Assembly (NCBI GenBank): GCA_004298385.1 | Contig: SCTX01000030.1 | Location: forward strand, 12,069 to 76,068 | Source: Betaproteobacteria bacterium | GTDB lineage: Bacteria; Pseudomonadota; Gammaproteobacteria; Burkholderiales; SG8-39 | Reading direction: 5' to 3' | Length of the DNA stretch: 64,000 nt | Shown: piece after piece, positions 10,320 through 23,343 of the stretch | Layout of the letters: each line of letters opens with the position of its first letter | Numbering within the stretch: position 1 is the stretch's first letter | Program-made: the position numbers and the translations under genes | The notes under the pieces: generated by a model | Told to the model about the DNA's origin: nothing | Databases searched by the model: none | What the model saw: only the letters and a program-made list of their open reading frames with translations

Positions 10320-13300
10320 ATGAACAATCAGTTCTTCGAAAAGCCGATACTCAATTCGCCCTACGCCTATCCAATTCGTCATTGGGAGCTGGATGAGGTT
10401 GGGCAGCCGACCCAGAAGATCGTCGAAACGCGCCGCCGCGCAGAATTCATCACGCCGATCCCCAAGCCGAAGAAGCGCAAGGGAGCGGCGCAGCAGGACT
10501 CGCTGCTGTTCGACGAGGGCGCTGGCTTAACTACATCGAAACAGCGTTACGATCACACGGCCATTATCAATTCCGTGCGCCAGCAAGTGGATGCGTGGCG
10601 CAAGCTGCCCAACACCAATGACTGGCGCGTCACGCCCGAGACCGCGCGGCTGCTGCAGCATTGGCGCCAGCACAAATTCGGCGGCATCCGGCCGTTCTTC
10701 TGCCAGATCGAAGCTGTCGAAACCGCGATCTGGCTGACCGAGGTTGCACCCCAGGCGGGTAAGGTGGGCGAAAGTTTCATCGCTCACCTGGCCGATTCTA
10801 ACAACGAGGCCAATCCGGAGTTGATGCGCCTCGCGCTCAAGCTGGCCACCGGCGCCGGCAAGACCACCGTCATGGCCATGCTGATCGCCTGGCAAACCAT
10901 CAACGCGGTGCGCCGCCCGCAGAGCAAGCGTTTCACGCGCGGCTTTCTCGTGGTCGCGCCGGGCCTCACCATCAAGGACCGTTTGCGGGTGCTGCAACCC
11001 AACGATCCGGACAGCTATTACGCCAGCCGCGAACTCGTGCCGAATGACCTGCTCATCGAAGTACACAAGGCCAAGATCGTCATCACCAACTTTCACGCGT
11101 TCAAGCTGCGCGAGCGTATCGAGCTGTCCAAGGGCGGCCGCTCCTTGCTGCAGGGCCGGGGCGAAGAATTGAACACGCTCGAAACCGAAGGCCAGATGCT
11201 GCAGCGGGTGATGCCCGACCTGATGGGTATGAAGAACATCCTGGTGCTGAACGACGAAGCGCACCATTGTTATCGCGCGAAGCCCGGAGCGGGAGAAGAA
11301 GACCTGAAGGGCGACGAGAGAAAGGAAGCGGAGAAAAACAAAGAGGCGGCGCGACTGTGGATCAACGGCCTCGAGGCGGTGAAGCGCAAACTCGGCGTCG
11401 CTCGCGTGATCGATTTGTCCGCCACGCCGTTCTTCCTCAGCGGCTCGGGTTATGCGGAAGGGACGCTGTTCCCCTGGACCATGAGCGATTTCTCGCTGAT
11501 GGACGCGATCGAGTGCGGCATCGTGAAACTGCCGCGCGTCCCGGTGGCCGACAACATCCCGGGCAATGAAATGCCTATGTTCCGGAACCTATGGGAACAC
11601 ATACGAGCCAAGATGCCCAAGAAAGGGCGTGGCAAAGCGGGAGTACTCGACCCGCGCGATCTCCCACCGCAGTTACAGACGGCGTTAGATGCGCTATACG
11701 GACACTATGCAAAGACCTTTGCGCTCTGGGTCGAGAAGAAGGTCTCGGTACCCCCCTGCTTTATCGTGGTCTGCAACAACACTTCCACTTCGAAGCTGGT
11801 CTACGATTACATTTCCGGCTTCCAGCAAGAGAGCGAGGACGGCACCAGTCAACTGGTGTTTGGTCGGCTGCCGTTGTTCCAGAACCATGATGAACACGGC
11901 AATCCGCTGTCCCGGCCAAGAACTCTCCTAATTGATAGCGAGCAATTGGAGTCGGGCGAAGGCCTTGATGAGAGTTTCCGCGCCATGGCCTCCGACGAGA
12001 TCGACCGCTTCCGCCGTGAGATTCTCGCACGTGGCGGCAAGCTGGCTGGTGAACTCCAGCAGGGCAAGGAGATCGATGACGTCACCCTGCTGCGCGAGGT
12101 AATGAATACAGTAGGCAAGCGCGAGCAGCTCGGTGCTGACATCCGTTGCGTCGTGTCCGTGTCCATGCTGACCGAAGGTTGGGATGCCAACACCGTGACG
12201 CATGTGCTCGGCGTGCGTGCATTCGGCACCCAGCTCTTGTGCGAGCAAGTGATTGGCCGCGCACTGCGCCGTCAGTCCTACGAACTCAACGAAGACGGCC
12301 TGTTCAATGTCGAGTATGCCGACGTACTGGGCATTCCCTTCGACTTCACCGCCAAGCCGGTGGTTGCTCCGCCGCAGCCGCCGCGCGAAACCATCACGGT
12401 CAAAGCCGTGCGTCCCGATCGCGATGCGCTCGAAATTCGCTTTCCCCGCGTGGAGGGCTATCGCGTCGAGCTGCCGGAGGAGCGGCTTACCGCACAGTTC
12501 GACAAGGACTCGGTGCTCGATTTAACACCCGAACTCGTGGGTGCGACGCGGACCCGGAACTCGGGGATCATCGGCGAGGCAGTCGATCTAAATTTGGTGC
12601 ATACCGGCGACATTCGTCCCTCCCAGGTCGTATACGAGCTTACTTCCCACCTGTTGCTTACCAAGTGGCGGGATGCCGACGGCGCGCCGCAACTGCATTT
12701 GTTCGGCCAGTTGAAGCGCATTGTCAAACAATGGCTGGACGAGAAGCGGCTGGATTGCCGTGGCGGAACCTATCCGGCGCAACTCAAGTACAAGATGCTC
12801 GCCGACATGGCGTGCGAGCGCATTATGGCGGGCATCATGCGCACATCCGTCGGAAAACGCCCGATCAAGGCCGTGCTCGATCCCTATAACCCGGTCGGGT
12901 CCACCGCCCATGTGCGTTTCAACACGTCGCGCAGCGACCGCTGGGAGACGAACGGCCCGCCGCCCAAATGCCACATCAACTGGGTGCTGCTCGACAGCGA
13001 CTGGGAAGGCGAATTCTGCCGCGTGGCGGAATCGCATCCGCGCGTGCGCGCCTACGTGAAGAACCACAACCTCGGCCTCGAAGTGCCCTACCGCTACGGC
13101 TCGGAGACGCGCAAGTACCTGCCCGACTTCATCGTGCGCGTGGACGACGGCCACGGCGAAGAAGATCTCTTGAACCTGATCGTGGAGATCAAGGGCTACC
13201 GGCGCGAGGACGCCAAGGAGAAGAAGTCCACCATGGACGCCTACTGGGTGCCGGGCGTGAACAACCTCGGCACGCACGGGCGCTGGGCCTTCGCCGAGTT

Positions 13301-13403
13301 CACCGAGGTGTATCAGATCGAATCGGACTTCGAGGCCAAGGTGAAAAGCGAGTTCGACAAGATGATCGAGCGCGTCGGGCAGGGCGCGGGATCGGTGGCG
13401 TAA
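10320..13403 (+). CDS. res: Type III restriction enzyme Res subunit (SF2 helicase plus C-terminal PD-(D/E)xK-like nuclease)
   Basis: 1027 aa. Helicase motif I is LATGAGKTTVMA, motif II is LNDEAHHCY, then DLSATPF, TEGWDANTV and QVIGRALRR. The C-terminal YLPDFIVRV...LIVEIKGYR looks like a nuclease core. Confidence 0.9.
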   Translation: MNNQFFEKPILNSPYAYPIRHWELDEVGQPTQKIVETRRRAEFITPIPKPKKRKGAAQQDSLLFDEGAGLTTSKQRYDHTAIINSVRQQVDAWRKLPNTNDWRVTPETARLLQHWRQHKFGGIRPFFCQIEAVETAIWLTEVAPQAGKVGESFIAHLADSNNEANPELMRLALKLATGAGKTTVMAMLIAWQTINAVRRPQSKRFTRGFLVVAPGLTIKDRLRVLQPNDPDSYYASRELVPNDLLIEVHKAKIVITNFHAFKLRERIELSKGGRSLLQGRGEELNTLETEGQMLQRVMPDLMGMKNILVLNDEAHHCYRAKPGAGEEDLKGDERKEAEKNKEAARLWINGLEAVKRKLGVARVIDLSATPFFLSGSGYAEGTLFPWTMSDFSLMDAIECGIVKLPRVPVADNIPGNEMPMFRNLWEHIRAKMPKKGRGKAGVLDPRDLPPQLQTALDALYGHYAKTFALWVEKKVSVPPCFIVVCNNTSTSKLVYDYISGFQQESEDGTSQLVFGRLPLFQNHDEHGNPLSRPRTLLIDSEQLESGEGLDESFRAMASDEIDRFRREILARGGKLAGELQQGKEIDDVTLLREVMNTVGKREQLGADIRCVVSVSMLTEGWDANTVTHVLGVRAFGTQLLCEQVIGRALRRQSYELNEDGLFNVEYADVLGIPFDFTAKPVVAPPQPPRETITVKAVRPDRDALEIRFPRVEGYRVELPEERLTAQFDKDSVLDLTPELVGATRTRNSGIIGEAVDLNLVHTGDIRPSQVVYELTSHLLLTKWRDADGAPQLHLFGQLKRIVKQWLDEKRLDCRGGTYPAQLKYKMLADMACERIMAGIMRTSVGKRPIKAVLDPYNPVGSTAHVRFNTSRSDRWETNGPPPKCHINWVLLDSDWEGEFCRVAESHPRVRAYVKNHNLGLEVPYRYGSETRKYLPDFIVRVDDGHGEEDLLNLIVEIKGYRREDAKEKKSTMDAYWVPGVNNLGTHGRWAFAEFTEVYQIESDFEAKVKSEFDKMIERVGQGAGSVA

Positions 13404-13629: not shown

Positions 13630-13840
13630 TGAAGACTTGAGATGCCAATTTGGCATTTCAAGTTCGCTGCACCTCGTTCCCGCTGGTGCAATTATGCGAT
13701 CACGACCCGTGACCGCATCGACCGGGGAGCACTTCAACTGGTCACAAACTGTGACAAGTGCACGGGTAGACGAACCTTCAAGGTCACAATTTGTGATCTT
13801 GAAGGTTCGCAGTGGATGGAGGCAATTTTTCTACACCTTT
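13630..13840 (+). pseudogene. Degenerate ORF6N-type gene remnant (three tandem xSQxVTS-like motifs)
   Basis: One frame reads LRCQFGISS...NWSQTVTS...SRSQFVILKVRSGW. This resembles the SQ(I/F)VT(S/L) segment found after ORF6N domains, including the intact gene at 14303. There is no start codon and no N-terminal domain. Confidence 0.4.
13771..13809. repeat. 39-nt inverted repeat with a GGTCACAA-T-TTGTGA(T/C)C core
   Basis: CGAACCTTCAAGGTCACAATTTGTGATCTTGAAGGTTCG, one mismatch. A shorter GTCACAAACTGTGAC lies at 13741-13755. Confidence 0.85.
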
Positions 13841-13970
13841 AGTGCGGCGGCTCAAGACCGCAAAGGGGCAATAAAGGGGCGAAAGGGGCAATCGCAGCAG
13901 CTACCACGAACCCGCCAGACCGGGGACGGAATGGGGACAAATAGGGGACAAAAGGGACATGGCTAACACG

Positions 13971-14011
13971 GTGATTCTTTAAGGTCACAATTTGTGACCT
14001 TAAAGAATCAC
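13971..14011. repeat. Perfect 41-nt palindrome with the same GGTCACAATTTGTGACC core
   Basis: GTGATTCTTTAAGGTCACAA-T-TTGTGACCTTAAAGAATCAC. Confidence 0.9.
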
Positions 14012-14053
14012 ATTGTGTGGCCGAAGCTTTTCTCCGCTTTCACTGCGGAGTAA
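13979..14053 (+). pseudogene. ORF6N-type gene remnant
   Basis: Reads LRSQFVTLKNHIVWPKLFSAFTAE*. It aligns with RSQIVTLKRGENIKYLPYAFTEQ of the intact ORF6N gene (14303-14878), about half of positions identical by hand. Confidence 0.55.
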
Positions 14054-14095
14054 TCTGGTCGATCAAGCAGCAGATATACGCAAACAGGGGACATC

Positions 14096-14296
14096 ATGGC
14101 GAGCACCTTACTTCTGGAAAAGATGTCGGTGGAAGAAAAGCTTCAGGCAATGGAATCGCTTTGGGACGACTTGTGCAGCAAGGCGGGTGGCATGGCGTCT
14201 CCGGCCTGGCACGAAGACGTCCTGGCCGAAAGGGAGGCGATGCAAAAGCGCGGTGAAGATCGATTCGAAGACTGGGAAGCTGCAAAGAAGGACTGA
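14096..14296 (+). CDS. Small antitoxin-like protein ('putative addiction module component' type)
   Basis: 66 aa, MSVEEKLQAMESLWDDL...SPAWHEDVLAEREAMQKRGEDRFEDWEAAKKD. This fits my recollection of the Unstab_antitox/TIGR02574-like pattern (L..ER..L...LW.SL......W..E...R.....G......W.E.K). No toxin gene follows it. Confidence 0.5.
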   Translation: MASTLLLEKMSVEEKLQAMESLWDDLCSKAGGMASPAWHEDVLAEREAMQKRGEDRFEDWEAAKKD

Positions 14297-14302: not shown

Positions 14303-14878
14303 ATGCCATCGATCACCCCAAGAAGCACACCCAAACCTGAGAATCTCGCGTCGCTGATTTACCTGCTGCGCGGAGAAAGAGTGCTCCTGAGCGAGCACCT
14401 TGCCGAGCTTTATGCCGTTCCTGTCAAAGTCCTCAATCAAGCAGTCAAGCGCAACATAGATCGATTCCCTGATGACTTCATGTTCCAGCTTACTCTGGAT
14501 GAAGCGGAGGCCATCCTCCGTTCAAGGTCACAAATTGTGACCTTGAAGCGGGGCGAGAACATCAAGTACCTTCCTTACGCCTTCACCGAGCAGGGTGTCG
14601 CCATGCTCTCCAGCGTGCTGCGCTCGCCGCGCGCGGTGGAGGTTAATATCGCGATCATGCGCACTTTCGTGCAGTTGCGGCGCCTGATGGATTCAAATCG
14701 CAATCTCGCGCGCCGGATCGAGGCGCTGGAGAAACGCTACGACGAACAATTCGCCACCGTCTTCGATGCCATCAAACGGCTGATCGCGGAAGACGAAAGC
14801 CGCAAGGCCAAGCCGAAACGCGGCATCGGCTTTCTTGCTGAACCCCGAACCAAGTACCGCGTCCAGACCCGATCCTGA
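14303..14878 (+). CDS. ORF6N-domain (KilA-N-related) DNA-binding protein
   Basis: 191 aa. IYLLRGERVLLSEHLAELYAVPVKVLNQAVKRNIDRFPDDFMFQLT...RSQIVTLKRGENIKYLPYAFTEQGVAMLSSVLRSPRAVEVNIAIMRTF is the typical ORF6N architecture. Confidence 0.75.
   Translation: MPSITPRSTPKPENLASLIYLLRGERVLLSEHLAELYAVPVKVLNQAVKRNIDRFPDDFMFQLTLDEAEAILRSRSQIVTLKRGENIKYLPYAFTEQGVAMLSSVLRSPRAVEVNIAIMRTFVQLRRLMDSNRNLARRIEALEKRYDEQFATVFDAIKRLIAEDESRKAKPKRGIGFLAEPRTKYRVQTRS
14521..14547. repeat. 27-nt perfect palindrome inside the ORF6N coding sequence
   Basis: TTCAAGGTCACAA-A-TTGTGACCTTGAA, which encodes SRSQIVTLK. Confidence 0.9.
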
Positions 14879-14890: not shown

Positions 14891-17704
14891 ATGGCTAAGA
14901 AATCGAATAACCCAAAGACCGTAGAAGCCCTGAAGCACGACGAGGCGACGCGCAAGAACATCCCCACGGCCGAATACCAGTCCGTGCTGCAAAAGGCGGA
15001 GCAGAACCCCGTTCGCGTGGCTTACGAAAGACGCAATCGCGATCTGGACCCGCAACTCGTCTGGCGCGGCAAGGACGAACAGGACTGGAGCGACCTCGTC
15101 GTCCATGCCCCGCCGCTCTACATCCAGGAAAAGGTCCACCCCAAGGCGCTGATCGACGATCTGCTGCGCGAGACGAAGGAGCGCGAGCATGAGGCGGGTC
15201 AGACTACCGCCGACTTGTTTGCCGACTTCAACGGCATACCCAAGGGCGTGGACAAGACCGAGTTCTACCAGCACGACCAGAACTGGTCGAACCGCATGAT
15301 CCTAGGGGATTCGCTGCAGGTGATGGCTAGCCTTGCGGAGCGCGAAGGGCTGCGGGGTAAAGTGCAGTGCATCTTCCTTGATCCGCCCTACGGTATCAAA
15401 TTCAACAGCAACTTTCAGTGGTCCACTACAGATAGAGCTGGGACCACCACAGATTCGTCGGAGAAGATCAGCAGGGAACCGGAGCAGGTGAAAGCCTTCC
15501 GCGACACTTGGCGCGATGGCATCCACAGTTACCTCACCTACCTGCGTGACCGCTTCTCCGTTGCTCGTGATCTTCTCACGGAATCCGGTTCCATCTTCGT
15601 TCAAATCGGTGATGAGAACGTGCATCGAGTTCGAGTGGTGATGGATGAGATTTTTGGCGATGACAATTTTGTGGCTCTGATTCCATTCCGGAAGAAGACC
15701 ATGCCCTTTGGTTCGAGATATATTGAGCAGATGGCAGATTTCATACTTTGGTATGCAAAGGCGAAGACCGATTCGCGAGGCAATGCGAATGCAAAATACC
15801 GAAAGCAATTCCTACTGCGTTCGGTTGAAGGTGAGTTTCACCATTGCTGGTATGAAGACACCGAAGGTGTTCGAACCAGAATGTCGAGACGCCAACTCTA
15901 CAATCATGCATTGCTCCCGCCAAAATCCCGTGTGTATCGACTAAAGTCGCTTGAGCCTTCAGGACGAATGGACTCTGGGATGTTTAGTTTTGAGTTTCGC
16001 GGTCGACCCTACCCACATCCGAAGAACGGATTCGGAACGACCGAGGAAGGGTTAAGACAGATAGAGAAGACCAACCGTTTAGAGCCCGAAGGGAATCGTC
16101 TTTGTTACGTTCTGTACGCCGATGAGGGCGAGTCGTCCCAGATGACAGCACCTTGGTCTGACACAGTAGGGGCTGATGACAAGCAGTATGTCGTGCAGAC
16201 CAATACCGAGGTTGTAAAACGCTGCATTTTGATGACGACTGACCCTGGCGACCTAATCCTTGACCCGACGTGCGGCTCCGGCACCTCCGCTTTCGTCGCG
16301 GAACAATGGGGCCGGCGCTGGATCACCATTGACACTTCGCGTGTGGCGCTCGCGCTGGCTCGCGCCCGCATCATGGGTGCCCGCTACCCGTATTACCTGC
16401 TCGCCGATTCGCGCGATGGCCAGATCAAGGAAGCCGAAATCACGCGAACCGCATTCTCCTCGCAGCCGGCGCGAGGCGATATCCGTCACGGCTTTGTCTA
16501 CGAGCGCGTGCCACATATCACGCTCAAATCCATCGCCAACAACGCCGAGATCGACGTGATTTGGGATCAGTGGCAGGCAAAGCTAGAGCCTTTGCGTAAC
16601 AAACTCAACGTAGCACTGAAGAAAACTTGGCGGGATTGGGAAATCCCGCGTGACGCGGAGGCCAAGTGGTCCGAGTCTGCCACGAGGCTACACGCCGAAT
16701 GGTGGCAGGCGCGTATTGAGCGGCAGAACGAGATCGATGCGTCCATCGCCGCCAAGGCGGAATTTGAATACCTCTACGACAAGCCGTACGACGACAAGAA
16801 AAAGGTCCGCGTGGCCGGGCCGTTCACCGTCGAAAGCTTGTCGCCTCATCGCGTGCTCGGCGTGGACGAGAACGACGAGCTGATCGACACCGCTGCTCAA
16901 TCAGGTGCCGACTATGCCGCCAAGCAGACCTTCCCTCAGATGATCCTGGAAAACCTCAAGGTCGCCGGCGTGCAACAGGCACACAAGGACGACCGCATCA
17001 GCTTTATTGCACTCAATCCCTGGCCCGGCGAGCTGATCTGCGCGGAAGGCCGCTACGTCGAAAGCAACGCTGAAACCGGCACCGAAAAGCGAGCTGCCAT
17101 TTTCATCGGCCCGGAGTTTGGCACCGTCACCCGTCCTGATCTGGTGTCCGCCGCGCGTGAAGCGGGTGATGCTGACTTCGACGTGCTCATCGCCTGCGCC
17201 TTCAACTACGAGGCCCATGCCACCGAGTTCAGCAAGCTCGGCCGCATCCCCGTGCTCAAGGCGCGCATGAACGCCGACCTGCACATGTCGGACGACCTAA
17301 AGAGCACGAACAAGGCCAACCTGTTCGTAATCTTCGGCGAACCCGACATCACCATCCTTCCGGAGAAAGACGGCAAGCTGCGCATCAAGGTCAACGGCGT
17401 GGACGTCTTCCACCCGCAAACCGGCGAAGTCCGCAGCGACGGACCCGAAGGCATCGCCTGCTGGTTCATCGACACCGACTACAACGAAGAAAGTTTCTTC
17501 GTCCGCCACGCCTACTTCCTCGGCGCCAACGACCCCTACACTGCGCTCAAGACCACCCTGAAGGCCGAGATTAACGAGGAAGCGTGGGCTACGCTGAATA
17601 GCGACACCTCACGCGCATTCGACAAGCCGAAGTCGGGGCGCATCGCTGTGAAGGTCATCAATCACCTCGGAGATGAGGTAATGAAGGTGTTTCGGGTAGG
17701 TTGA
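14891..17704 (+). CDS. mod: Type III DNA methyltransferase Mod subunit (beta-class N6-adenine/N4-cytosine MTase)
   Basis: 937 aa. Motif IV FLDPPYGIKF lies N-terminal to motif I DPTCGSGTSAFVAEQWGRRWITID, which is the beta-class order. The long region between them is consistent with a target recognition domain. Confidence 0.9.
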   Translation: MAKKSNNPKTVEALKHDEATRKNIPTAEYQSVLQKAEQNPVRVAYERRNRDLDPQLVWRGKDEQDWSDLVVHAPPLYIQEKVHPKALIDDLLRETKEREHEAGQTTADLFADFNGIPKGVDKTEFYQHDQNWSNRMILGDSLQVMASLAEREGLRGKVQCIFLDPPYGIKFNSNFQWSTTDRAGTTTDSSEKISREPEQVKAFRDTWRDGIHSYLTYLRDRFSVARDLLTESGSIFVQIGDENVHRVRVVMDEIFGDDNFVALIPFRKKTMPFGSRYIEQMADFILWYAKAKTDSRGNANAKYRKQFLLRSVEGEFHHCWYEDTEGVRTRMSRRQLYNHALLPPKSRVYRLKSLEPSGRMDSGMFSFEFRGRPYPHPKNGFGTTEEGLRQIEKTNRLEPEGNRLCYVLYADEGESSQMTAPWSDTVGADDKQYVVQTNTEVVKRCILMTTDPGDLILDPTCGSGTSAFVAEQWGRRWITIDTSRVALALARARIMGARYPYYLLADSRDGQIKEAEITRTAFSSQPARGDIRHGFVYERVPHITLKSIANNAEIDVIWDQWQAKLEPLRNKLNVALKKTWRDWEIPRDAEAKWSESATRLHAEWWQARIERQNEIDASIAAKAEFEYLYDKPYDDKKKVRVAGPFTVESLSPHRVLGVDENDELIDTAAQSGADYAAKQTFPQMILENLKVAGVQQAHKDDRISFIALNPWPGELICAEGRYVESNAETGTEKRAAIFIGPEFGTVTRPDLVSAAREAGDADFDVLIACAFNYEAHATEFSKLGRIPVLKARMNADLHMSDDLKSTNKANLFVIFGEPDITILPEKDGKLRIKVNGVDVFHPQTGEVRSDGPEGIACWFIDTDYNEESFFVRHAYFLGANDPYTALKTTLKAEINEEAWATLNSDTSRAFDKPKSGRIAVKVINHLGDEVMKVFRVG

Positions 17705-17762
17705 GGCGGGGAATGAACATGAAACTAATTGCGGCGAGTAACATCGGAAAGGTAGTTGACTT

Positions 17763-18317
17763 ATGACCGATGCAGATATGCGCAAGCTTCCACTGGAGTC
17801 GCTGCACGAGCGGCACACTGGTCTCACACCCTTATTGGCCGGCGCATTCTTTGAGGCTGCTTCGGTTTGCTTAAACCGACATCACAATTCACCCGTGGAG
17901 ATGGAGATTGCGCGCAATGGCGGCACGAGTACCAGGCTGGCCGAGTTTCAAAAGCCGGACGCCCGTATTCTGAACGCTTGGGCCAACGACATCGATACGA
18001 CCGAGAATGGCGCGTACTGTGTGAGCTTGGGGGCAATGGAAGTCGAGGAACAACTGGTCGCGGTCAAGCGTGCCGAGACACTTTCCGGGGCGGATTGGTA
18101 CGTTGCTCCGATTGGGACTACCCCTGATGATTTGGAGCGCTGCCTCCGGCTGGAGGTCTCGGGTCTCGATACTGGGGGTCGTTCGGCCGTGGAGGCGCGC
18201 TTGCGGCAGAAGGTTGACCAAACAAGGAGAGGTGCAAGTAACCTGCCCGCCATCGCATCAGTCGTGGGATTCAAGGAAAGATCGATCGCGATTCAAAGAG
18301 TGGGTGACGACGAATGA
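17763..18317 (+). CDS. Hypothetical protein, 184 aa (unknown family)
   Basis: ATG lies 58 nt after the mod stop. The stop overlaps the next start (ATGA at 18314-18317). I recognise no motif with confidence. Confidence 0.6.
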   Translation: MTDADMRKLPLESLHERHTGLTPLLAGAFFEAASVCLNRHHNSPVEMEIARNGGTSTRLAEFQKPDARILNAWANDIDTTENGAYCVSLGAMEVEEQLVAVKRAETLSGADWYVAPIGTTPDDLERCLRLEVSGLDTGGRSAVEARLRQKVDQTRRGASNLPAIASVVGFKERSIAIQRVGDDE

Positions 18318-19423
18318 CTTGGGCCGAACTCCATGCCGAAAGCGAGCAGCTGGCAATCGAAGCCCAGTTGGCCTTACTGGCCAGAAACGCTAGACAAGCA
18401 GTCGATCTGTACAGGCGTGCGGCGGAAGCCGAGCGTCGAGCGCTTGATCAGCTTGACGGCTCGAAAGTAAGAACCAGGGGCATCACGGCCGTTAGTACCG
18501 TGGCTCTTTGGTTCAAGGCTCGTGAGTACGCCCTAGCTGAGCAGCTTGCGCACGCAATGCTCGCCGATCCATACATCCCGGACTTTGCGCGTGAGGATCT
18601 GAGAAATCTTGTCCAAGCAATCTGGACAGAGAGTTCCATGCAGAAAGCGGGCGTCGAGTTCGTTCCAGGCCAGGTCATGGTCTCAGTAAAAGGTGGTGAG
18701 GTCGTTACTGGCGGGGCGCCTCTTGATTTGATCGTCGATAAGGTCCAGACGATTCAAAAAATGTTTTACAGGACGATCGAATTCGTGAACGGCGTTTCAC
18801 TTCGCAGGGCCGGGCCGCCGCCAAAAGAACTACAAGACGCTTGCCGACCTTGGCTGTTTCAATCGGCCCCCGGTAGCTATCAGTTCTCGGTTGCAATCCA
18901 AAAGCCCGCGCAATCCGATTTTTTCAAAAAAGATATTCAACCAGAGAGAATCGCGCAGCATTTTCTCGAAATCGTTAGTGCCTCATCAGGTGATAATGCT
19001 GCGACACTTGAAAAATTGGTGCCGGACGAAAAATACCGCAGCACGTTTTTGAAGCTTGCACGTAATCTCGCCCCTACCGGGAAGACTTTTGAGCGCATTG
19101 AATTCCGCGCGTCTGGCGAAACACGACCTGTCGCCCTCGGTGTCGAATCTAGGGTTAGCATTAATCAGCAGCTACGCAAGAAATCCGACGTTCCAACAAC
19201 AGTGGATGAAGTACCTGAAGAACTACACGGAACTTTGCGGGCTTTGCATCTGGACAAGGACTGGCTGGAGGTCGTTGTAGGCGACGTGTCCATGCATGTT
19301 GTTGGACTTCAGGACGCGGTTGACGACGTGATTGGTCCAATGGTGAATCGGACGGTGGTTGTCCGGGCCATTCGTAGCTCGCAGAACAAGCTCACGTTTT
19401 TGGACATTGAGCTTGCTGACTGA
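18314..19423 (+). CDS. Hypothetical protein, 369 aa (unknown family; helical Ala/Arg/Glu-rich N-terminus)
   Basis: Translationally coupled to the preceding ORF. A long clean ORF in a region that is visibly less GC-rich. I recognise no family. Confidence 0.65.
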   Translation: MTWAELHAESEQLAIEAQLALLARNARQAVDLYRRAAEAERRALDQLDGSKVRTRGITAVSTVALWFKAREYALAEQLAHAMLADPYIPDFAREDLRNLVQAIWTESSMQKAGVEFVPGQVMVSVKGGEVVTGGAPLDLIVDKVQTIQKMFYRTIEFVNGVSLRRAGPPPKELQDACRPWLFQSAPGSYQFSVAIQKPAQSDFFKKDIQPERIAQHFLEIVSASSGDNAATLEKLVPDEKYRSTFLKLARNLAPTGKTFERIEFRASGETRPVALGVESRVSINQQLRKKSDVPTTVDEVPEELHGTLRALHLDKDWLEVVVGDVSMHVVGLQDAVDDVIGPMVNRTVVVRAIRSSQNKLTFLDIELAD

Positions 19424-19446
19424 AGTGGGACGTCTACTCAGAACCG

Positions 19447-19547
19447 GCGACACATCCTGCGCCTTCGACAAACCGAAGTCCGGGCGCATCGCTGTGAAAG
19501 TGATCAACCACCTGGGGGACGAGATGATGAAAGTCTTCAAGGTGTAG
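19447..19547 (+). pseudogene. Relic of the 3' end of a second, diverged Type III mod gene
   Basis: Reads DTSCAFDKPKSGRIAVKVINHLGDEMMKVFKV*, against DTSRAFDKPKSGRIAVKVINHLGDEVMKVFRVG* at the end of the intact mod (17601-17704). 29 of 32 aa are identical, with about 20 nt differences, mostly at third codon positions. Confidence 0.8.
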
Positions 19548-19564: not shown

Positions 19565-20323
19565 ATGAGCGACCGTCTCCTTAATCTTAAGTCTCCTCCA
19601 ATTGTCGAGGCAGTTCTCGATATTGATTGCGACATGCCGCCTATGCTGGCACTGGACAAGTTGGAAGCATCCGCCCGAGATGCGTTCCGCGATCATTACC
19701 CGAAATTTCGAACACAATTTCTTCAGGCTCTGCACGTCGAGGCAGCAGCGGATCGTGCGCCGAACGTGACGACCAGACAAGGGATTCAGGCGCTCCAGTT
19801 TTTGCAAGAAGACGAGAAGCAGCTTGTGCAATTGCGGACACAAGGCTTTTCTTTTAATCGATTGGCCCCATATAAGAGCTTGGACGATTACTTGCCGGAA
19901 ATAGAACGGACGTGGCGGTTATTTGTCGACCTTGCTGCGCCGGTTCAAATACGCGTTATCCGATTACGGTATATCAATCGCATTCCGCTCCCGATGACTG
20001 CAGGACGGGTCGATTTGGACGATTACCTGAAACTCGGTCCGCGACTTCCGGATGAAGATAAACTGACATTTGAGGGATTTCTCACTAAACATTCGGCGGT
20101 GGAATCGGATACTGACAATCGAGTAAACATTATTCTTTCAGCGCAGCCACCAGAAAATGATAAGCTTCCTGTAATTCTTGACATTGAAACCTATAAATCG
20201 GGTAATGCGGAGCCGCATAATTGGGCAGAAAGCCTCTCGAAAATCCAATCTTTGCGACGCTTGAAGAACCTTGTTTTTGAGAATTCTCTTACAGACCAAT
20301 GTTTGAAGCTGTTTCAGCACTAA
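19565..20323 (+). CDS. Hypothetical protein, TIGR04255-like (uncharacterised family)
   Basis: 252 aa. The N-terminus LKSPPIVEAVLDIDCDMPP...FRDHYPKF fits my memory of the TIGR04255 signature (..aPL.EVv.eirF......l......f......yP.). This needs an HMM check. Confidence 0.6.
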   Translation: MSDRLLNLKSPPIVEAVLDIDCDMPPMLALDKLEASARDAFRDHYPKFRTQFLQALHVEAAADRAPNVTTRQGIQALQFLQEDEKQLVQLRTQGFSFNRLAPYKSLDDYLPEIERTWRLFVDLAAPVQIRVIRLRYINRIPLPMTAGRVDLDDYLKLGPRLPDEDKLTFEGFLTKHSAVESDTDNRVNIILSAQPPENDKLPVILDIETYKSGNAEPHNWAESLSKIQSLRRLKNLVFENSLTDQCLKLFQH

Positions 20324-20841
20324 GAGTCCATCTGGGGTTCGCGTCCCTTTATTCGCTTGCGCGCCCCGGAAGCGCCATTTCGGCTGAAGCGCAAGCGGTC
20401 CAAAGAGCCGCCACAAGTGTGGTGGACTCCGTAGAGCGCTCGCAAGCCTTGTTCGGTGATAAAGCGACCGCAATCTCTCAGTTATGGGCTCTCGCGAACG
20501 AATGTGGAGAGCCCGGTTGGGATGGCGATGCCGCATTACCGCTGGATCATATGGCTGTTTTCAAGGCTGTTGCCTTCATACGGGCCTTGCCAGATGGAGT
20601 ACCGCTACCGGAGTTTGCCCCCGGGCCTGACGGTTCACTATCTCTTGATTGGATTTCGTCTCGAAATCGTCTTTTTTCATTGAGCGTCGGCTCTGGCGAT
20701 CGCTTGCCGTATGCGTGGTTGGACGGGACCGACAAGGGCCACGCCGTGGCTCGCTTTGATGGAGAGAGCGTTCCGCAAAGAATCCTGGAAGGGATAACGT
20801 CAATCTTAAAAGTTGGAAGTGCTCTCGTCCGGTCTCACTGA
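20299..20841 (+). CDS. Hypothetical protein, 180 aa
   Basis: The ATG overlaps the previous gene by 25 nt. Contains EPGWDGDAALPLDHMAVFKAVAFIRALPDGVPLPEFAPGPDGSLSLDW. Family unknown and the start codon is uncertain. Confidence 0.55.
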   Translation: MFEAVSALRVHLGFASLYSLARPGSAISAEAQAVQRAATSVVDSVERSQALFGDKATAISQLWALANECGEPGWDGDAALPLDHMAVFKAVAFIRALPDGVPLPEFAPGPDGSLSLDWISSRNRLFSLSVGSGDRLPYAWLDGTDKGHAVARFDGESVPQRILEGITSILKVGSALVRSH

Positions 20842-21226
20842 AATTGTTGAAGATGAGGAAAGTCTCGCCAGATTCCTCACTTCCTCCAGTCAATTCAACG
20901 CAAGCGGCGCGAAGCCGTCTGTTTTTTTACCGAATCCTAAAGATAGAGCGAAATCCGTGTTCCGTCACGGGAGTCAACCGAGGGACTCTCTCTGGCGAAT
21001 CGCGGAAGAACATATGGCTGGAGTCCGGACGCTTTATGGGGCGGCGATTGTCAAGGCAAAACATGTTCGATCCGCGCTGCTGGACGTGGTCGCTCAGGAA
21101 CCACCCCCACGGCATGCCAACATTGTCGGGTGGCCTTGGTCCGAAACTGATCCGGAGATGAGGAAAGCCGAACACATAGAGCGTGCTCTCGTTATCGTTC
21201 AGTGGGCCGAGGTGGTTCGGCGGTAA
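20813..21226 (+). CDS. Hypothetical protein, 137 aa
   Basis: TTG start at 20813 (or GTG at 20819) overlaps the previous gene by about 29 nt. Contains SVFRHGSQPRDSLW...PPPRHANIVGWPW. Family unknown. Confidence 0.5.
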   Translation: MEVLSSGLTEIVEDEESLARFLTSSSQFNASGAKPSVFLPNPKDRAKSVFRHGSQPRDSLWRIAEEHMAGVRTLYGAAIVKAKHVRSALLDVVAQEPPPRHANIVGWPWSETDPEMRKAEHIERALVIVQWAEVVRR

Positions 21227-21267: not shown

Positions 21268-23343
21268 ATGGATTTCCGCATCGCCGACACCTTCACCGAC
21301 AGCCTCGCGCGCCTGACCGGCGACGAACAGAAGGCCGCCAAGACCACCGCTTTCGATCTGCAGCTCAATCCGGTGAACCCCGGGATGCAGCTCCACAAGA
21401 TCGAGAAATCCAAGGACAAGAATTTCTGGTCGGTGCGCGTCGGCGCCGACATCCGCCTGATCGTGCACAAATCGCCGGGCAGCTTGCTGCTTTGCTACGT
21501 GGATCATCACGACAAGGCTTACGACTGGGCCAGGCGGCGGAGGCTGGAAGCGCATCCGAAGACGGGGGCGGCACAGTTTGTGGAGATCCGCGAGACGGTG
21601 CAGGAAATTCTGGTGCCGGCTTATGTCGAGGAGGCGAAGCCTGCGCCATATTTGGAGCCGTTGTTCGCGAAAGTTTCGGATGACGAGTTGCTCGGCTACG
21701 GCGTGCCCGCGGAGTGGCTGGCGGACGTGCGTGCCGCCACGGAAGGGACCCTGCTGACGCTGGCCGACCATTTGCCCGGCGAAGCGGCCGAGGCGCTGTT
21801 GGAACTGGCGACCGGCGGCAAACCGCGCGCGCCGCAGCCGGTCGCGCAGAAGGTGAACCCGTTCGATCATCCGGACGCGCAGCGCCGGTTCCGCGTGATG
21901 AGCAATGTGGAGGAGCTGGAGCGCGCGCTCGAGTTCCCGTGGGACAAATGGACGGTGTTTCTGCACCCGGAGCAGCGGCAATGGGTCGAGCGGGACTACG
22001 CCGGGCCGGCGCGGGTGTCGGGTTCCGCGGGCACGGGCAAGACCATCGTGGCGCTGCATCGTGCTGTGTACCTTGCGCGCAGCGATCCCGACAGCCGGGT
22101 GCTGCTGACGACGTTCTCCGAAACGCTGGCGAACGCGCTGCGCACGCGCTTGAGACGCTTGCTCGGCAACCAACCACGACTCGCCGAGCGGCTAGAGGTG
22201 CATGCCATGAATGCGATCGGCGAGCGTTTGTACGAGCAGCATTTTGGGAAGCCGCAGATCGCCACGCGCGAACTCATCCGCCGCTATATCGCGGCAGCGG
22301 TGGCAGAGCATGAAGGCCAGAAATTCAGCCCCGCTTTCCTGTTGTCGGAGTGGGAAGAGTTGGTCGATGCCTGGCATCTGGAGAACTGGGAGTCGTATCG
22401 GGACGTGAAGCGCCTGGGCAGGAAGACCCGCTTGCCCGAGGCCAGGCGCGCGACGCTTTGGGCGATGTTCGACGCGGTGCGTAAGCGCGTGGATGCCGAG
22501 GGGTTGGTCACCCGCGCGGGACTGTTCAATCGCCTGGCGGGCCAATTGCGTGAGCGCAAGCATCCGCCTTTCGACTATGTCGTGGTGGACGAGTCGCAAG
22601 ACGTGAGCGTGGCGCAACTGCGATTTCTGGCTGCGCTCGGAGCGGAGCGGCCAAATGGCCTCTTCTTTGCCGGCGATCTCGGACAGCGGATTTTCCAGCA
22701 GCCGTTTTCATGGAAATCCCTCGGCGTGGACATACGCGGCCGCGCGCGCACGCTGCATATCAACTACCGCACCTCGCATCAGATCCGGACGCAGGCGGAC
22801 CGGCTGCTCGCCCCCGAAGTGGCGGACGTGGACGGCAATGTCGAGGAACGCCGCGGCACGGTCTCGGTATTCAACGGACCGCCTCCTGTGGTTCAAGTCT
22901 TCGACAGCCAGGAAGAGGAAATCGAAGCGGCCGGTGCGTGGTTGGCTGAGAGGAGAAAGGAAGGCGTGATGTCTCACGAGATCGGCGTATTCGTGCGCTC
23001 GGAGGCGCAGCTGGAACGCGCCCGCGCAGCGCTCGCCCGAGCCGGACTGCCGTTCAAGGTGCTCGACGACGGCGTGGAGATAACCTACGGTCGGGTGTCT
23101 ATCAGTAGCATGCATCTGGCCAAGGGCCTGGAGTTCCGCGCGGTGGCGGTGATGGCCTGCGACGACGAAGTCATTCCGTTGCAGGCGCGCATCGAGACCG
23201 CGGCCGAGGATTCCGATCTGGAAGAGGTGTACAACACCGAACGCCACCTGCTGTACGTCGCCTGCACGCGGGCACGGGATCACCTGCTTGTCACAAGCGT
23301 AGAACCCGCGTCGGAATTTCTGGACGATCTTCAATCGAGATAA
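21268..23343 (+). CDS. UvrD/Rep-like SF1 helicase with an N-terminal RelE/ParE-like domain
   Basis: 691 aa from ATG 21268. Walker A is SGSAGTGKTIVALHRA and motif II is VVVDESQDVS, followed by INYRTSHQI, SMHLAKGLEFRAV and LLYVACTRARDHLLV. The first ~90 aa (FWSVRVGADIRLIVHKSPGSLLLCYVDHHDKAY) resemble the RelE/ParE toxin fold pattern. Confidence 0.85.
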   Translation: MDFRIADTFTDSLARLTGDEQKAAKTTAFDLQLNPVNPGMQLHKIEKSKDKNFWSVRVGADIRLIVHKSPGSLLLCYVDHHDKAYDWARRRRLEAHPKTGAAQFVEIRETVQEILVPAYVEEAKPAPYLEPLFAKVSDDELLGYGVPAEWLADVRAATEGTLLTLADHLPGEAAEALLELATGGKPRAPQPVAQKVNPFDHPDAQRRFRVMSNVEELERALEFPWDKWTVFLHPEQRQWVERDYAGPARVSGSAGTGKTIVALHRAVYLARSDPDSRVLLTTFSETLANALRTRLRRLLGNQPRLAERLEVHAMNAIGERLYEQHFGKPQIATRELIRRYIAAAVAEHEGQKFSPAFLLSEWEELVDAWHLENWESYRDVKRLGRKTRLPEARRATLWAMFDAVRKRVDAEGLVTRAGLFNRLAGQLRERKHPPFDYVVVDESQDVSVAQLRFLAALGAERPNGLFFAGDLGQRIFQQPFSWKSLGVDIRGRARTLHINYRTSHQIRTQADRLLAPEVADVDGNVEERRGTVSVFNGPPPVVQVFDSQEEEIEAAGAWLAERRKEGVMSHEIGVFVRSEAQLERARAALARAGLPFKVLDDGVEITYGRVSISSMHLAKGLEFRAVAVMACDDEVIPLQARIETAAEDSDLEEVYNTERHLLYVACTRARDHLLVTSVEPASEFLDDLQSR

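What the first reader, a model, noticed from the sequence alone, without database searches (positions are those of the whole stretch)
17763..19423. Coupled two-gene cassette of unknown function right after Type III mod: best candidate for an undescribed RM-associated or defence module
- **What the sequence shows:** a 184-aa ORF and a 369-aa ORF share an ATGA stop/start overlap (18314-18317). They begin 58 nt after the mod stop, run in the same direction as res/mod, and sit in the most AT-rich part of the window.
- **Family assignment:** I cannot place either protein in any family I know.
- **The small protein:** it has a central block TENGAYCVSLGAMEVEEQLVAVKRAETLSGADWYV...LRLEVSG. Its acidic/hydrophobic alternation is vaguely like small nuclease or sensor domains, but I see no confident catalytic motif.
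- **The large protein:** it has a roughly 100-aa Ala/Arg/Glu-rich helical N-terminus and an unrecognisable C-terminal part that looks beta-rich.
- **Context:** the pair is bracketed by the intact mod 3' end and a relic of another mod 3' end, so it behaves as an exchangeable cargo unit inside a defence island.
Basis: partly seen in the sequence, partly recalled or inferred. Interest (0 to 1): 0.85.

Follow-up and report, generated by a model that had tools for sequence, protein, structure and literature searches.

The report
Uncharacterised two-gene defence cargo module
Two overlapping genes of unknown function (a small nuclease-like protein and a larger TPR-containing partner) move between very different bacteria as a fixed pair; here they sit in a slot of a restriction system that elsewhere holds known anti-phage genes, so they are a well-supported but untested candidate for a new phage-defence system.

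Summary
ORF A (17763-18317, 184 aa) and ORF B (18314-19423, 369 aa) overlap by ATGA, 58 nt after mod. Neither matches Pfam, NCBIfam, PADLOC, PHROGs or PDB sequences.

Both are real, strongly conserved genes. B's family has 1,918 clusters at 50% identity. In 52 genomes from at least 8 phyla A precedes B, with a 4-nt overlap in 42 of 48 loci.

- **A:** a confident model shows an alpha-beta-beta-beta-alpha-beta core with invariant E93, D111, E131-x-S133 and near-invariant K150. This is a PD-(D/E)xK-like layout, but fold matches are weak.
- **B:** an N-terminal TPR-like domain plus an unknown core with an invariant TGGAPLDL loop. It resembles phage LE1 and DUF6575 proteins, whose relatives pair with DUF4365 nucleases.
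- **Context:** res-mod and a UvrD-like helicase form a conserved frame with a cargo slot. The slot was empty in 15 of 66 loci. Elsewhere it held PARIS-, Gabija-, Septu-, Lamassu-, GmrSD-, Hachiman- and RT-type genes.
- **This window:** the slot holds two stacked cargos. The mod relic is the old left flank of the second cargo.
- **Elsewhere:** about a third of A-B copies follow R-M genes of four classes. Others stand alone.

Verdict: a likely new two-gene defence module, mechanism inferred and function untested.

The parts
17705..17762 (+). 58-nt spacer between the mod stop and the A start. It has a purine-rich Shine-Dalgarno-like GGAAAGG and no promoter or terminator consensus.
   Evidence: Co-transcription with res/mod in this window is inferred.
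17763..18317 (+). Gene A, 184 aa: a small protein with a predicted restriction-endonuclease-like (PD-(D/E)xK-like) core. Candidate active-site residues are E93, D111, E131-x-S133 and K150/Q153. There is also an invariant N-terminal R17-H18.
   Evidence: AlphaFold pLDDT 90, pTM 0.88, topology H76-96/E98-103/E112-116/E128-135/H140-155/E163-169. Invariance across 52 sequences down to 41% identity. The top Foldseek PDB hits are all PD-(D/E)xK folds, but E is 0.1 or worse.
18314..18317 (+). ATGA overlap of the A stop and the B start (translational coupling).
   Evidence: The same 4-nt overlap is present in 42 of 48 evaluable loci, and the others have -14, -1 or +1 nt.
18314..19423 (+). Gene B, 369 aa: N-terminal TPR-like helical repeat (residues 1-112, nt 18314-18649) plus an alpha/beta core of unknown function (residues about 115-369).
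   Evidence: Model pLDDT 77. KLC2 TPR match with probability 0.99. Weak recurring Pfam TPR hits in 11 of 107 family members. Core resembles Leptospira phage LE1 Q6NE06 (E = 7e-8) and a DUF6575 protein (E = 3e-7). hhalign to the LE1-0037 family gives E = 0.0025 over 192 columns.
18707..18730 (+). Codons for B residues T132-G-G-A-P-L-D-L139. This 8-residue stretch is invariant in 48 loci at 39-80% identity and lies in a low-confidence loop; in the wider 107-member set (30-58% identity) only G133, A135 and P136 stay nearly invariant (90% or more). It is a candidate functional site.
19443..19547 (+). Relic of a mod 3' end (a diverged allele). It is the left flank of the next cargo, not part of A-B, and marks the boundary between two stacked cargos.
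19565..21226 (+). Second cargo in the same slot: TIGR04255-family gene (252 aa) plus 180-aa and 137-aa genes.
   Evidence: The same trio lies between mod and the helicase without A-B in L073, L114 and L119, partly in L090, and as fragments in L066, L120 and L100.
10320..13403 (+). res (ResIII helicase plus RE_endonuc), first gene of the host framework.
14891..17704 (+). mod (N6_N4 methyltransferase), left border of the cargo slot.
21268..23343 (+). UvrD-like helicase (true start MDFRIADTF...), the conserved third gene and right border of the cargo slot.

Best explanation
**What it is.** A-B is a self-contained two-gene conflict (anti-phage) module that moves horizontally. In this window it is carried as one of two stacked cargos in the slot between mod and a UvrD-like helicase of a Type III-like restriction system.

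**Proposed mechanism.**
- The overlapping ORFs are translationally coupled, so A and B are made together and probably form a complex.
- A is the effector. It would be a small restriction-endonuclease-fold nuclease with a variant active site: E93, D111, E131-x-S133, with K150 supplied from the following helix.
- B is the sensor or regulator. Its TPR domain would bind a protein cue from the invader or from a disturbed host process. Its conserved core, with the invariant TGGAPLDL loop, would keep A silent until the cue arrives.
- Activation would release nuclease activity against phage or cellular nucleic acid, giving direct or abortive-infection-type protection.

**Shown:** gene reality, strict pairing and coupling, co-evolution, mobility between contexts, embedding among known defence genes, absence from described families, and the fold predictions.

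**Inferred:** complex formation, nuclease activity, which partner is the effector, the trigger, and the defence phenotype.

**My estimates:** a defence or conflict role about 0.7; A as nuclease effector about 0.5; B as sensor about 0.4.
For: **Real, conserved, coupled pair**
- Homologs reach 70-88% identity across Acidithiobacillus, Nitrosomonadales, Noviherbaspirillum and a Bacteroidetes MAG.
- 52 genome loci come from at least 8 phyla.
- A lies directly upstream of B almost everywhere, with a 4-nt overlap in 42 of 48 loci.
- Pairwise distances of A and B correlate at r = 0.87.
- B's family has 1,918 clusters at 50% identity, nearly all of the full-length members listed being about 365-390 aa.

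**Context**
- The pair lies immediately downstream of Type III operons, whichever gene is last: res-mod in L005, L007, L015, L019-21 and L034; mod-res in L009 and L018.
- It also follows MmeI-type enzymes (L024, L061), a Type ISP enzyme (L041) and a ResIII gene (L027).
- About 17 of 49 immediate upstream neighbours are R-M genes.
- In 66 metagenome loci with mod and helicase, the slot is empty in 15 and filled in 49. The cargo matches AriA, GajA, PtuA, Old, LmuB, AbiLi, HEC-01A, GmrSD, HamA, RT and SLFN/AlbA_2.

**Mobility as a unit**
- Copies of the close clade are also found on an integrative element and alone.
- Stand-alone copies end in terminator-like hairpins.
- GC is below the host background.

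**A**
- The model is confident and shows the PD-(D/E)xK core topology, with invariant acidic residues at the canonical positions.
- The best PDB fold hits are all of that superfamily, including the SPARDA DREN domain.

**B**
- It has a TPR-like N-terminus.
- Its core resembles proteins of about 375 aa. Their relatives are preceded, again with a 4-nt overlap, by DUF4365 proteins of 172-176 aa.
- DUF4365 is the proven DREN effector nuclease of SPARDA (PMC10810196, PMC12205087).
- Those sister pairs also lie beside R-M and Gabija-like genes and in temperate phage LE1.

**Precedents**
- PD-T4-10 shows that an overlapping small-plus-large pair without recognisable domains can be an abortive-infection defence (PMC9519451).
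Against: - No experiment has been done. The defence role rests on guilt by association.
- A's fold matches are statistically weak (best E = 0.1, TM about 0.3).
- The canonical lysine of (D/E)xK is an invariant serine in A.
- Profile comparisons of A with DUF4365 partners and with the Res nuclease domain are not significant.
- B carries many invariant polar residues and an invariant loop, so B rather than A could be the catalytic or toxic component. That is the arrangement in PD-T4-10, where the large protein is the toxin.
- B's model is only moderately confident (pLDDT 77, pTM 0.60). Its link to the LE1/DUF6575 group has an hhalign probability of only 12%.
- Many copies sit beside housekeeping genes such as FadB, MetH, CheB/R and P450.
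- B (the protein queried) has no match in 72,556 plasmids or 50,697 phage genomes.
- A-B fills the slot in only 1 of the 80 helicase loci examined.
Confidence: 0.45

Rival explanations
1. A toxin-antitoxin-like module with the roles reversed. B, the large protein, is the toxin or effector and the small protein A is its antitoxin. The pair stabilises the island and/or triggers abortive infection when A is lost or titrated, as in PD-T4-10.
For: - The architecture matches PD-T4-10: two overlapping ORFs, small first (at least 162 aa) and large second (at least 343 aa), 1,604 bp in total against 1,661 bp here, with no recognisable domains.
- In PD-T4-10, B is toxic, A neutralises it, and the defence is abortive (PMC9519451).
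- B has an invariant 8-residue loop and many invariant charged residues, which suggests its own active site.
- B is split or truncated in several loci, while no locus shows an intact B without A.
Against: - PADLOC's PD-T4-10 models hit none of 107 B-family or 52 A-family members at E up to 1.
- PD-T4-10B showed no TPR in HHpred, whereas B has one.
- A has the nuclease-like core with invariant acidic residues, which would be unusual for a simple antitoxin.
- The sister modules pair the large protein with a bona fide effector-type nuclease domain, DUF4365.
Confidence: 0.2
2. An accessory or guard of restriction-modification. A-B works with the upstream R-M enzyme. It might process restriction products, or act as a back-up that fires when phage anti-restriction proteins disable the R-M system, in the way PARIS senses Ocr.
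For: - About a third of copies lie immediately downstream of, and co-oriented with, R-M genes of four different classes: Type III in both gene orders, MmeI-type IIL, Type ISP, and N6_Mtase enzymes.
- There is no promoter or terminator between mod and A here.
- TPR domains are protein-binding modules that could recognise an inhibitor. Payne et al. review the concept of anti-defence proteins as triggers.
Against: - Many copies have no R-M gene nearby and sit next to FadB, MetH, CheB/R, P450, or on an integrative element.
- The R-M partners are unrelated to each other, so a specific physical partnership is unlikely.
- The same slot holds many autonomous systems.
- Adjacency is therefore explained by cargo embedding.
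Confidence: 0.12
3. A non-defence function, for example DNA repair or recombination, or regulation. The pair would simply hitch-hike in variable regions.
For: - Stand-alone copies occur beside housekeeping genes.
- B (the protein queried) has no match in the plasmid and phage collections.
- There is no direct functional evidence of any kind.
Against: - Distribution is sporadic across at least 8 phyla, with up to 88% identity between distant lineages.
- GC is lower than the host background.
- Pseudogenes are frequent.
- The pair is strongly enriched beside R-M genes and inside a slot dominated by defence genes.
Confidence: 0.08
4. A selfish mobile cassette. A would be a homing or transposition nuclease that inserts the pair at gene 3' ends, and the duplicated mod 3' end would be its footprint.
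For: - The insertion is precise between the mod stop and the helicase start.
- Flanking repeats of the mod 3' end occur in the window, L005 and L007.
- A has a nuclease-like fold.
Against: - The relic is only 82% identical to the resident mod end.
- It is collinear with the mod end plus three-gene cargo of L114, so it belongs to the neighbouring cargo.
- There is no flanking repeat in 45 or more other loci.
- There are no terminal inverted repeats or target duplications around stand-alone copies.
- No transposase or integrase domain was detected.
- Where the helicase abuts B there is no relic at all.
Confidence: 0.04

Closest known systems
PD-T4-10 (Vassallo et al. 2022, Nat Microbiol; PMC9519451)
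   Same: - It is a two-gene operon with overlapping ORFs, small protein first and large protein second, with nearly the same total length (1,604 against 1,661 bp).
- Neither protein has a recognisable domain.
- It is experimentally an abortive-infection, TA-like defence.
   Different: - No sequence relationship was detectable with PADLOC's PD-T4-10 models.
- No TPR was reported in PD-T4-10B.
- In PD-T4-10 the large protein is the toxin, whereas here the small protein looks like the nuclease.
- Its sequences could not be fetched for a direct profile or structure comparison.
DUF4365 (DREN-type PD-(D/E)xK nuclease) plus a protein of about 380 aa: Leptospira phage LE1 LE1-0038/LE1-0037 and relatives, themselves uncharacterised. 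DUF4365 is the effector nuclease of SPARDA short-Argonaute systems.
   Same: - The layout and sizes match: 172-176 aa followed by 373-395 aa, with a 4-nt overlap in L146 and L149.
- The large proteins resemble B structurally (Foldseek E = 7e-8) and, weakly, by profile (E = 0.0025 over 192 columns, with the GSYQF and GSFGF motifs aligned).
- The small proteins are nuclease-fold proteins.
- The neighbourhoods are defence-type: R-M genes, Gabija-like genes, a temperate phage.
   Different: - A lacks the DUF4365 signature (E...DYGxD...QxK) and shows no significant profile similarity to it.
- The LE1-type large proteins show no sign of B's TPR N-terminus: their N-terminal consensus is different and the shared region starts after it. 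This was not tested directly.
- In SPARDA the nuclease is fused to APAZ and controlled by an Argonaute, and neither is present here.
Genes embedded in multi-gene defence systems (Hma-embedded candidates and PDCs; Payne et al. 2021, PMC8565338; 2024, bioRxiv 10.1101/2024.01.29.577857)
   Same: - A-B is cargo nested between the genes of a helicase/methylase/ATPase-type system.
- The co-resident cargo classes are the same: Septu-type, HEC-01-like ABC ATPases and GmrSD-like genes.
   Different: - The host frame has an N6/N4 methyltransferase and a Type III Res, whereas Hma is defined with an m5C methyltransferase.
- A-B matches none of the HEC or PDC models in PADLOC-DB 2.0.0. The weak PDC-M63B and PDC-M32A hits of some B relatives are not mirrored by A.
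Effector plus TPR-partner operons such as BcTir/BcTpr (bioRxiv 10.1101/2023.05.26.542521)
   Same: It is a two-gene operon in which a TPR protein accompanies an effector. [quoted passage not shown]
   Different: - The effector there is a TIR NADase, not a nuclease-like protein.
- There is no homology to A or B.
- This is a resemblance of logic only.

Membership tests
PD-(D/E)xK (restriction-endonuclease-like) nuclease superfamily (protein A) | Core fold alpha-beta-beta-beta-alpha-beta | tested here: met
   The AlphaFold model (pLDDT 90) has H76-96, E98-103, E112-116, E128-135, H140-155 and E163-169.
PD-(D/E)xK (restriction-endonuclease-like) nuclease superfamily (protein A) | Catalytic motif: an acidic residue at the start of strand 2 and (D/E)xK in strand 3 | tested here: inconclusive
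   D111 and E131 are invariant at the expected positions. The lysine position is an invariant serine (S133). K150 (98%) and Q153 (100%) on the next helix could substitute.
PD-(D/E)xK (restriction-endonuclease-like) nuclease superfamily (protein A) | Significant structural or profile similarity to a known member | tested here: inconclusive
   The top Foldseek PDB hits are all members (EndA, MGME1, SPARDA DREN, Cas4, Hjc), but the best E is 0.098 and TM is about 0.3. No Pfam or PDB sequence hit.
DUF4365 / DREN nuclease (protein A) | Match to the DUF4365 profile or signature E...DxGxD...QxK | tested here: not met
   No Pfam hit. hhalign to three DUF4365 partners gives E = 0.06-0.6. The signature is absent from A.
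TPR repeat proteins (protein B, residues 1-112) | Helix-turn-helix repeat fold with similarity to TPR structures or profiles | tested here: met
   Foldseek match to the KLC2 TPR with probability 0.99 and rmsd 4.4 over 111 columns. Weak Pfam TPR_2, TPR_14 and TPR_7 hits in 9-11 of 107 relatives. The profile also touches designed TPR and KLC2 sequences in PDB at E = 0.1-2.
DUF6575 / phage LE1-0037-like proteins (protein B core) | Profile or structure similarity over the core domain | tested here: inconclusive
   Foldseek against BFVD gives E = 6.8e-8 (344 columns) and 2.7e-7 (271 columns), but on a model of pLDDT 77. hhalign gives E = 0.0025 with probability 12%. DUF6575 is not among the 25 most frequent Pfam hits of 107 relatives.
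PD-T4-10 defence system | Homology of both proteins to PD-T4-10A and PD-T4-10B | tested here: not met
   PADLOC models gave no hit for the window proteins at E up to 0.1, nor for 107 B and 52 A relatives at E up to 1. Only the architecture is shared.
PD-T4-10 defence system | Large protein toxic, small protein neutralising, abortive-infection phenotype | not testable with these tools
   This needs expression and phage assays.
Any system in PADLOC-DB 2.0.0 (known systems, HEC, PDC) | Both components hit the models of one system | tested here: not met
   The weak PDC-M63B and PDC-M32A hits for some B relatives have no partner hit for A.
Hma system (as host frame of the cargo slot) | Three genes: helicase, m5C methyltransferase, ATPase | tested here: not met
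Type III restriction-modification (host frame) | Res with a helicase domain plus endonuclease, and Mod as an N6/N4 methyltransferase, in one operon | tested here: met
   ResIII plus RE_endonuc in res, and N6_N4_Mtase in mod. The additional conserved UvrD-like helicase is not part of the classical definition.
Type II toxin-antitoxin systems | Small labile antitoxin with a DNA-binding domain, plus a toxin of a known family | tested here: not met
   Neither protein hits a toxin or antitoxin family, and no HTH or RHH domain was found. Toxicity was not testable.
Transposon or homing cassette | Terminal repeats or target-site duplication, and a transposase or integrase | tested here: not met

The most novel reading that the evidence does not exclude
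A-B and the DUF4365-plus-380-aa pairs (phage LE1 type) may belong to one large superfamily of two-component immune modules that has not been described. In it, a new regulatory or enzymatic core domain carrying the invariant TGGAPLDL loop, fused to interchangeable N-terminal sensor domains (TPR in B), would control small restriction-endonuclease-fold effectors. The core domain would then be a new kind of sensor or switch, or a new enzyme. Its frequent position directly behind R-M genes of four classes could reflect a guard function that detects phage anti-restriction activity.
Probability: 0.15. Interest if true: 0.8.

Novelty: new variant of a known kind. Interest (0 to 1): 0.55.

Why it matters
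- **A sizeable unnamed family.** If A-B is a defence system, it adds a widespread family. B alone has about 1,900 clusters at 50% identity in at least 8 phyla. It has no name, no Pfam or NCBIfam model, no solved structure and no PADLOC entry.
- **Possible new biochemistry.** The family could hold a new effector-control mechanism, built on the unknown B core with its invariant loop.
- **A discovery tool.** The Type III-like res-mod plus UvrD-like helicase frame has an internal cargo slot that was filled in 49 of 66 loci, mostly with recognisable defence genes. That makes it a practical hunting ground for further systems, in the spirit of the Hma, BREX and Type I embedding already described.
- **A model of island growth.** The relics show how cargos stack in such slots by recombination at conserved flanks.

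Tried and rejected
- **Curated family assignment.** Pfam, NCBIfam, PADLOC and PHROGs gave nothing for the window proteins. Relaxed scans of 107 B and 52 A relatives gave only weak TPR hits, plus unpaired PDC-M63B and PDC-M32A hits that I regard as TPR noise.
- **PDB by sequence.** Three profiles gave nothing beyond TPR-like noise.
- **A as a paralogue of the Res nuclease domain.** hhalign gave E = 0.58, so this was rejected.
- **A as DUF4365.** Not significant.
- **p180 related to B.** This would have explained the shared PDC-M32A hits, but it was rejected.
- **Transposon or homing model.** Rejected.
- **The relic as the cassette's own end.** Rejected in favour of its being the flank of the neighbouring cargo.
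- **The host frame as Hma.** Rejected on methylase type.
- **Plasmid and phage collections.** No B homolog.
- **RNA elements, tRNA and promoter/terminator scans around the pair.** Nothing found.
- **Which Vassallo system carries DUF6575.** Not recoverable from the held text or tables.
- **Literature by accession or by description.** Nothing found.
Full report
**1. The observation**

- ORF A (17763-18317, 184 aa) and ORF B (18314-19423, 369 aa) exist as described, on the + strand.
- They share an ATGA stop/start overlap.
- They begin 58 nt after the stop of mod (14891-17704).
- No sigma-70-like promoter or intrinsic terminator lies between mod and A. No tRNA or Rfam element is nearby.
- GC of the pair is 0.548 against 0.616 for the window. 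The minimum of about 0.50 spans B's 3' half and the next gene.
- Neither protein matches Pfam, PADLOC, NCBIfam or PHROGs, or any PDB sequence, even with profiles.
- RefSeq and UniProt call the orthologues 'hypothetical protein', and no paper cites their accessions.

**2. Are they real genes and a real pair?**

- A has 567 database homologs and B has 1,939. The top 120 hits are 67-88% identical for A and 75-88% for B, from very different lineages: Acidithiobacillus, Nitrosomonadales, Noviherbaspirillum, and Gammaproteobacteria and Bacteroidetes MAGs.
- An exhaustive profile search finds 1,918 clusters of B relatives at 50% identity (295 with E of 1e-30 or better). Nearly all of the full-length members listed are 365-390 aa. 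The one longer protein in the top 150 (680 aa) matches only the N-terminal 134 residues.
- A scan of one genome per species returned 52 loci. They come from Alpha-, Beta- and Gammaproteobacteria, Acidobacteriota, Nitrospinota, Desulfobacterota, Actinobacteria, Chloroflexota and Verrucomicrobiota.
- In these loci, and in five metagenome contexts, A lies directly upstream of B wherever the sequence is complete.
- The overlap is 4 nt in 42 of 48 loci and -14, -1 or +1 nt in the rest.
- Pairwise distances of A and B correlate at r = 0.87, so the pair is inherited as a unit.
- B is split or truncated in about seven loci, the kind of decay seen in accessory genes.
- B has no homolog in 72,556 plasmids or 50,697 phage genomes. 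Two IMG/VR contigs carry a copy, one of them partial.

**3. What the proteins look like**

*Protein A*
- The model is confident (pLDDT 90, pTM 0.88).
- It has an N-terminal helix plus hairpin, then an alpha-beta-beta-beta-alpha-beta core.
- Across 52 sequences down to 41% identity, these residues are invariant: E93 on the first core helix, D111 at the start of strand 2, E131 and S133 in strand 3, and Q153. K150 on the next helix is 98% conserved. R17, H18, R103 and E125 are also invariant.
- This is the layout of a PD-(D/E)xK nuclease, with the lysine replaced by serine and possibly supplied from the helix.
- Foldseek against PDB gives no significant hit. The best matches (E = 0.1-1) are nearly all members of that superfamily: tRNA-splicing endonuclease, MGME1, the SPARDA DREN domain, Cas4 and Hjc.
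- A is not related by profile to the Res nuclease domain.

*Protein B*
- The model is of moderate confidence (pLDDT 77).
- Residues 1-112 form a TPR-like repeat, with a KLC2 match at probability 0.99. Weak Pfam TPR hits recur in relatives.
- The rest is a mixed alpha/beta region with no PDB match.
- That region holds an 8-residue stretch, T132-GGAPLDL-139, that is invariant in the 48 loci (39-80% identity), plus other invariant polar residues: R153, E156, R164, S188-YQF, Y241-R242, R280, D337-D338, N345 and D364. In the wider 107-member set, at 30-58% identity, only part of the loop stays nearly invariant.

**4. A structural lead for B**

- Against predicted viral structures, B matches a 381-aa protein of Leptospira phage LE1 (E = 6.8e-8 over 344 columns). 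It also matches a 370-aa 'DUF6575 domain-containing protein' (E = 2.7e-7).
- In LE1 this gene (LE1-0037) is preceded on the same strand by a 176-aa gene, LE1-0038.
- A profile of LE1-0037 relatives aligns collinearly with B residues 115-318. The pairwise E is 0.0025 but the probability is only 12%. The GSYQF and GSFGF motifs are matched.
- In two relatives the upstream partner (172-174 aa, 4-nt overlap) is a Pfam DUF4365 protein. The neighbourhoods are an N6_Mtase/Eco57I plus Methylase_S system and a Gabija-like OLD-TOPRIM plus UvrD pair.
- DUF4365 is the DREN effector nuclease of SPARDA (PMC10810196, PMC12205087).
- A does not carry the DUF4365 signature and shows no significant profile similarity to it.
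- The parallel is therefore one of architecture and predicted fold. Homology has not been demonstrated.
- DUF6575 is listed by Vassallo et al. among the domains of their validated systems, but I could not recover which one.
- The same paper's PD-T4-10 is the closest described analogue in layout. It has two overlapping ORFs, small then large, 1,604 bp in all, with no domains. It gives abortive infection; the large protein is toxic and the small one neutralises it.
- PADLOC's PD-T4-10 models hit none of the A or B relatives.

**5. Genomic context**

- In A. ferrivorans the pair follows res, an antitoxin-like gene, mod and an RT-nitrilase pair.
- In three metagenome or MAG contexts it directly follows Type III res-mod or mod-res.
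- In a Nitrosomonadales genome it sits on an integrative element near BREX-like genes.
- Among 49 non-redundant loci, the immediate upstream neighbour is an R-M gene in about 17. These are 9 N6_N4 methylases, 3 ResIII, 2 MmeI-type and 3 N6_Mtase/Type ISP genes.
- The other upstream neighbours are mobile-element genes (integrase, TrfA, ArdC) or housekeeping genes (FadB, MetH, CheB/R, P450).
- Downstream, a UvrD-like helicase recurs in 5 of 52 loci.

**6. The slot**

- In L020 the helicase start overlaps B's stop by one base (TGATG). In L021 and L034 it follows within a few bases, and in L019 the helicase ORF also begins at B's end.
- L001/L012, L005, L007 and L015 keep degenerate remnants of the helicase 5' end at that position. 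In L005 and L007 the remnant is fused to a mod 3' relic.
- I fetched 80 metagenome loci with close relatives of the window's helicase. Of these, 66 also have the same mod upstream.
- In 15 of the 66 mod abuts the helicase, which is an empty slot. In 49 there is 0.6-8 kb of almost entirely co-oriented cargo. Only one locus (L077) has A-B there.
- The 98 cargo proteins hit AriA, GajA, PtuA, Old, LmuB, AbiLi, HEC-01A, mad3, GmrSD, HamA, reverse transcriptase, Peptidase_S8, HipA-like and SLFN/AlbA_2.
- So res-mod-helicase is a conserved frame whose internal slot collects defence genes, as described for Hma, BREX, DISARM and Type I systems (bioRxiv 10.1101/2024.01.29.577857).
- The frame is not Hma in the strict sense. 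Hma has an m5C methyltransferase, whereas mod here is an N6/N4 enzyme (PMC8565338).

**7. The relic**

- The window's segment from relic (19443-19547) through TIGR04255, p180 and p137 to the helicase is collinear with L114's mod 3' end, the same three genes and the helicase. The 33 terminal mod residues are 91% identical.
- The trio also fills the slot without A-B in L073 and L119 and partly in L090, and fragments of it occur in L066, L120 and L100.
- The window's slot therefore contains two stacked cargos, and the relic is the old left flank of the second.
- No flanking repeat exists in most A-B loci. Stand-alone copies have no terminal inverted repeats or target duplications, and several end in a hairpin.
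- On a B similarity tree, all frame-associated copies fall in one clade (64% identity or more). That clade also contains copies on an integrative element, behind mod-res systems, and alone.
- The pair therefore relocates as a unit.

**8. Interpretation**

- The best-supported reading is an autonomous two-gene conflict module, with a nuclease-fold effector (A) and a TPR-bearing sensor or regulator (B).
- I give a defence or conflict role about 0.7. The specific division of labour is less certain, and the overall confidence in the model is 0.45.
- The main rival keeps the defence role but reverses the roles, with B as toxin and A as antitoxin, as in PD-T4-10 (0.2).
- An R-M accessory or guard role (0.12) fits the frequent adjacency but not the many stand-alone copies.
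- A non-defence role (0.08) and a selfish mobile cassette (0.04) fit poorly.

**9. Novelty and limits**

- The pair is not a member of any family I could test, and it has no described homolog.
- In kind it resembles known two-gene nuclease-plus-partner or TA-like defences, so I rate it a new variant of a known kind.
- Everything functional is inferred.

Noticed in passing
window 10320-13403 (res), 14891-17704 (mod), 21268-23343 (helicase); loci L065-L144: The Type III-like res-mod pair is regularly followed by a conserved UvrD-like helicase with an N-terminal region of about 250 aa of unknown function. The gap between mod and the helicase is a cargo slot. It was empty in 15 of 66 loci and filled with diverse, mostly recognisable defence genes in 49. 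It behaves like Hma embedding, but the methylase is N6/N4, not m5C.
   Followed up: yes
window 19565-21226: A three-gene cargo (TIGR04255-family 252 aa, plus 180-aa and 137-aa proteins with no family) recurs as a unit in the same slot without A-B: in full in L073, L114 and L119, partly in L090, and as fragments in L066, L120 and L100. It is itself an uncharacterised candidate defence module.
   Followed up: partly
window 14096-14296 and 14303-14878: Between res and mod lie a 66-aa Unstab_antitox (addiction-module) gene and a 191-aa ORF6N-domain gene. This is a second embedding site. Other loci carry different genes there: DUF4062 plus HATPase_c_4 in L007, a 410-aa gene in L019 and a 1,272-aa gene in L034.
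   Followed up: partly
window 21268-22020 (helicase N-terminal region): The helicase's first 250 residues or so have no PDB sequence match. The only Pfam hit is a weak HigB-like toxin match (E = 0.018, residues 58-103 of the ORF as listed from 21202). The ORF list starts the gene at GTG 21202, but conservation puts the true start at 21268 (MDFRIADTF).
   Followed up: partly
L145 (Leptospira phage LE1, BX571876) 38735-40413, minus strand; L146 5480-7140; L149 5486-7146: A sister two-gene module pairs a DUF4365 (DREN-type nuclease) protein of 172-176 aa with a protein of about 380 aa; the two ORFs overlap by 4 nt in L146 and L149 and are separated by 2 nt in LE1. It occurs in a temperate phage and beside R-M and Gabija-like genes, and it appears to be undescribed as a system.
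   Followed up: partly
L001 6459-9186 (Acidithiobacillus ferrivorans LT841305): A reverse transcriptase (RVT_1) plus a CN_hydrolase-like gene sits between mod and A-B. A helicase 5' remnant follows B, which gives three layers of cargo history in one slot.
   Followed up: no
L039, L052, L059, L061, L062 (B split); L033, L045 (B truncated): B is frameshifted or truncated in about seven of 52 genome loci. Some cases may be MAG assembly errors. No locus shows an intact B without A.
   Followed up: no
window 20299-20841 (p180) and B-family members: Both p180 (E = 0.01) and 10 of 107 B relatives (best E = 0.003) weakly hit the PADLOC candidate PDC-M32A, yet p180 and B are unrelated by hhalign (E = 0.37). 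This is unexplained and probably noise.
   Followed up: partly
L064 (IMG/VR UViG_3300048574_000242) 9466-11131: The most divergent A-B copy (39% identity) lies on a contig classified as viral. Whether this is a prophage or a misclassified contig was not examined.
   Followed up: no
window 13404-14095: About 690 nt between the res stop and the antitoxin-like gene contain only short ORFs with no assignment. This stretch was not analysed.
   Followed up: no
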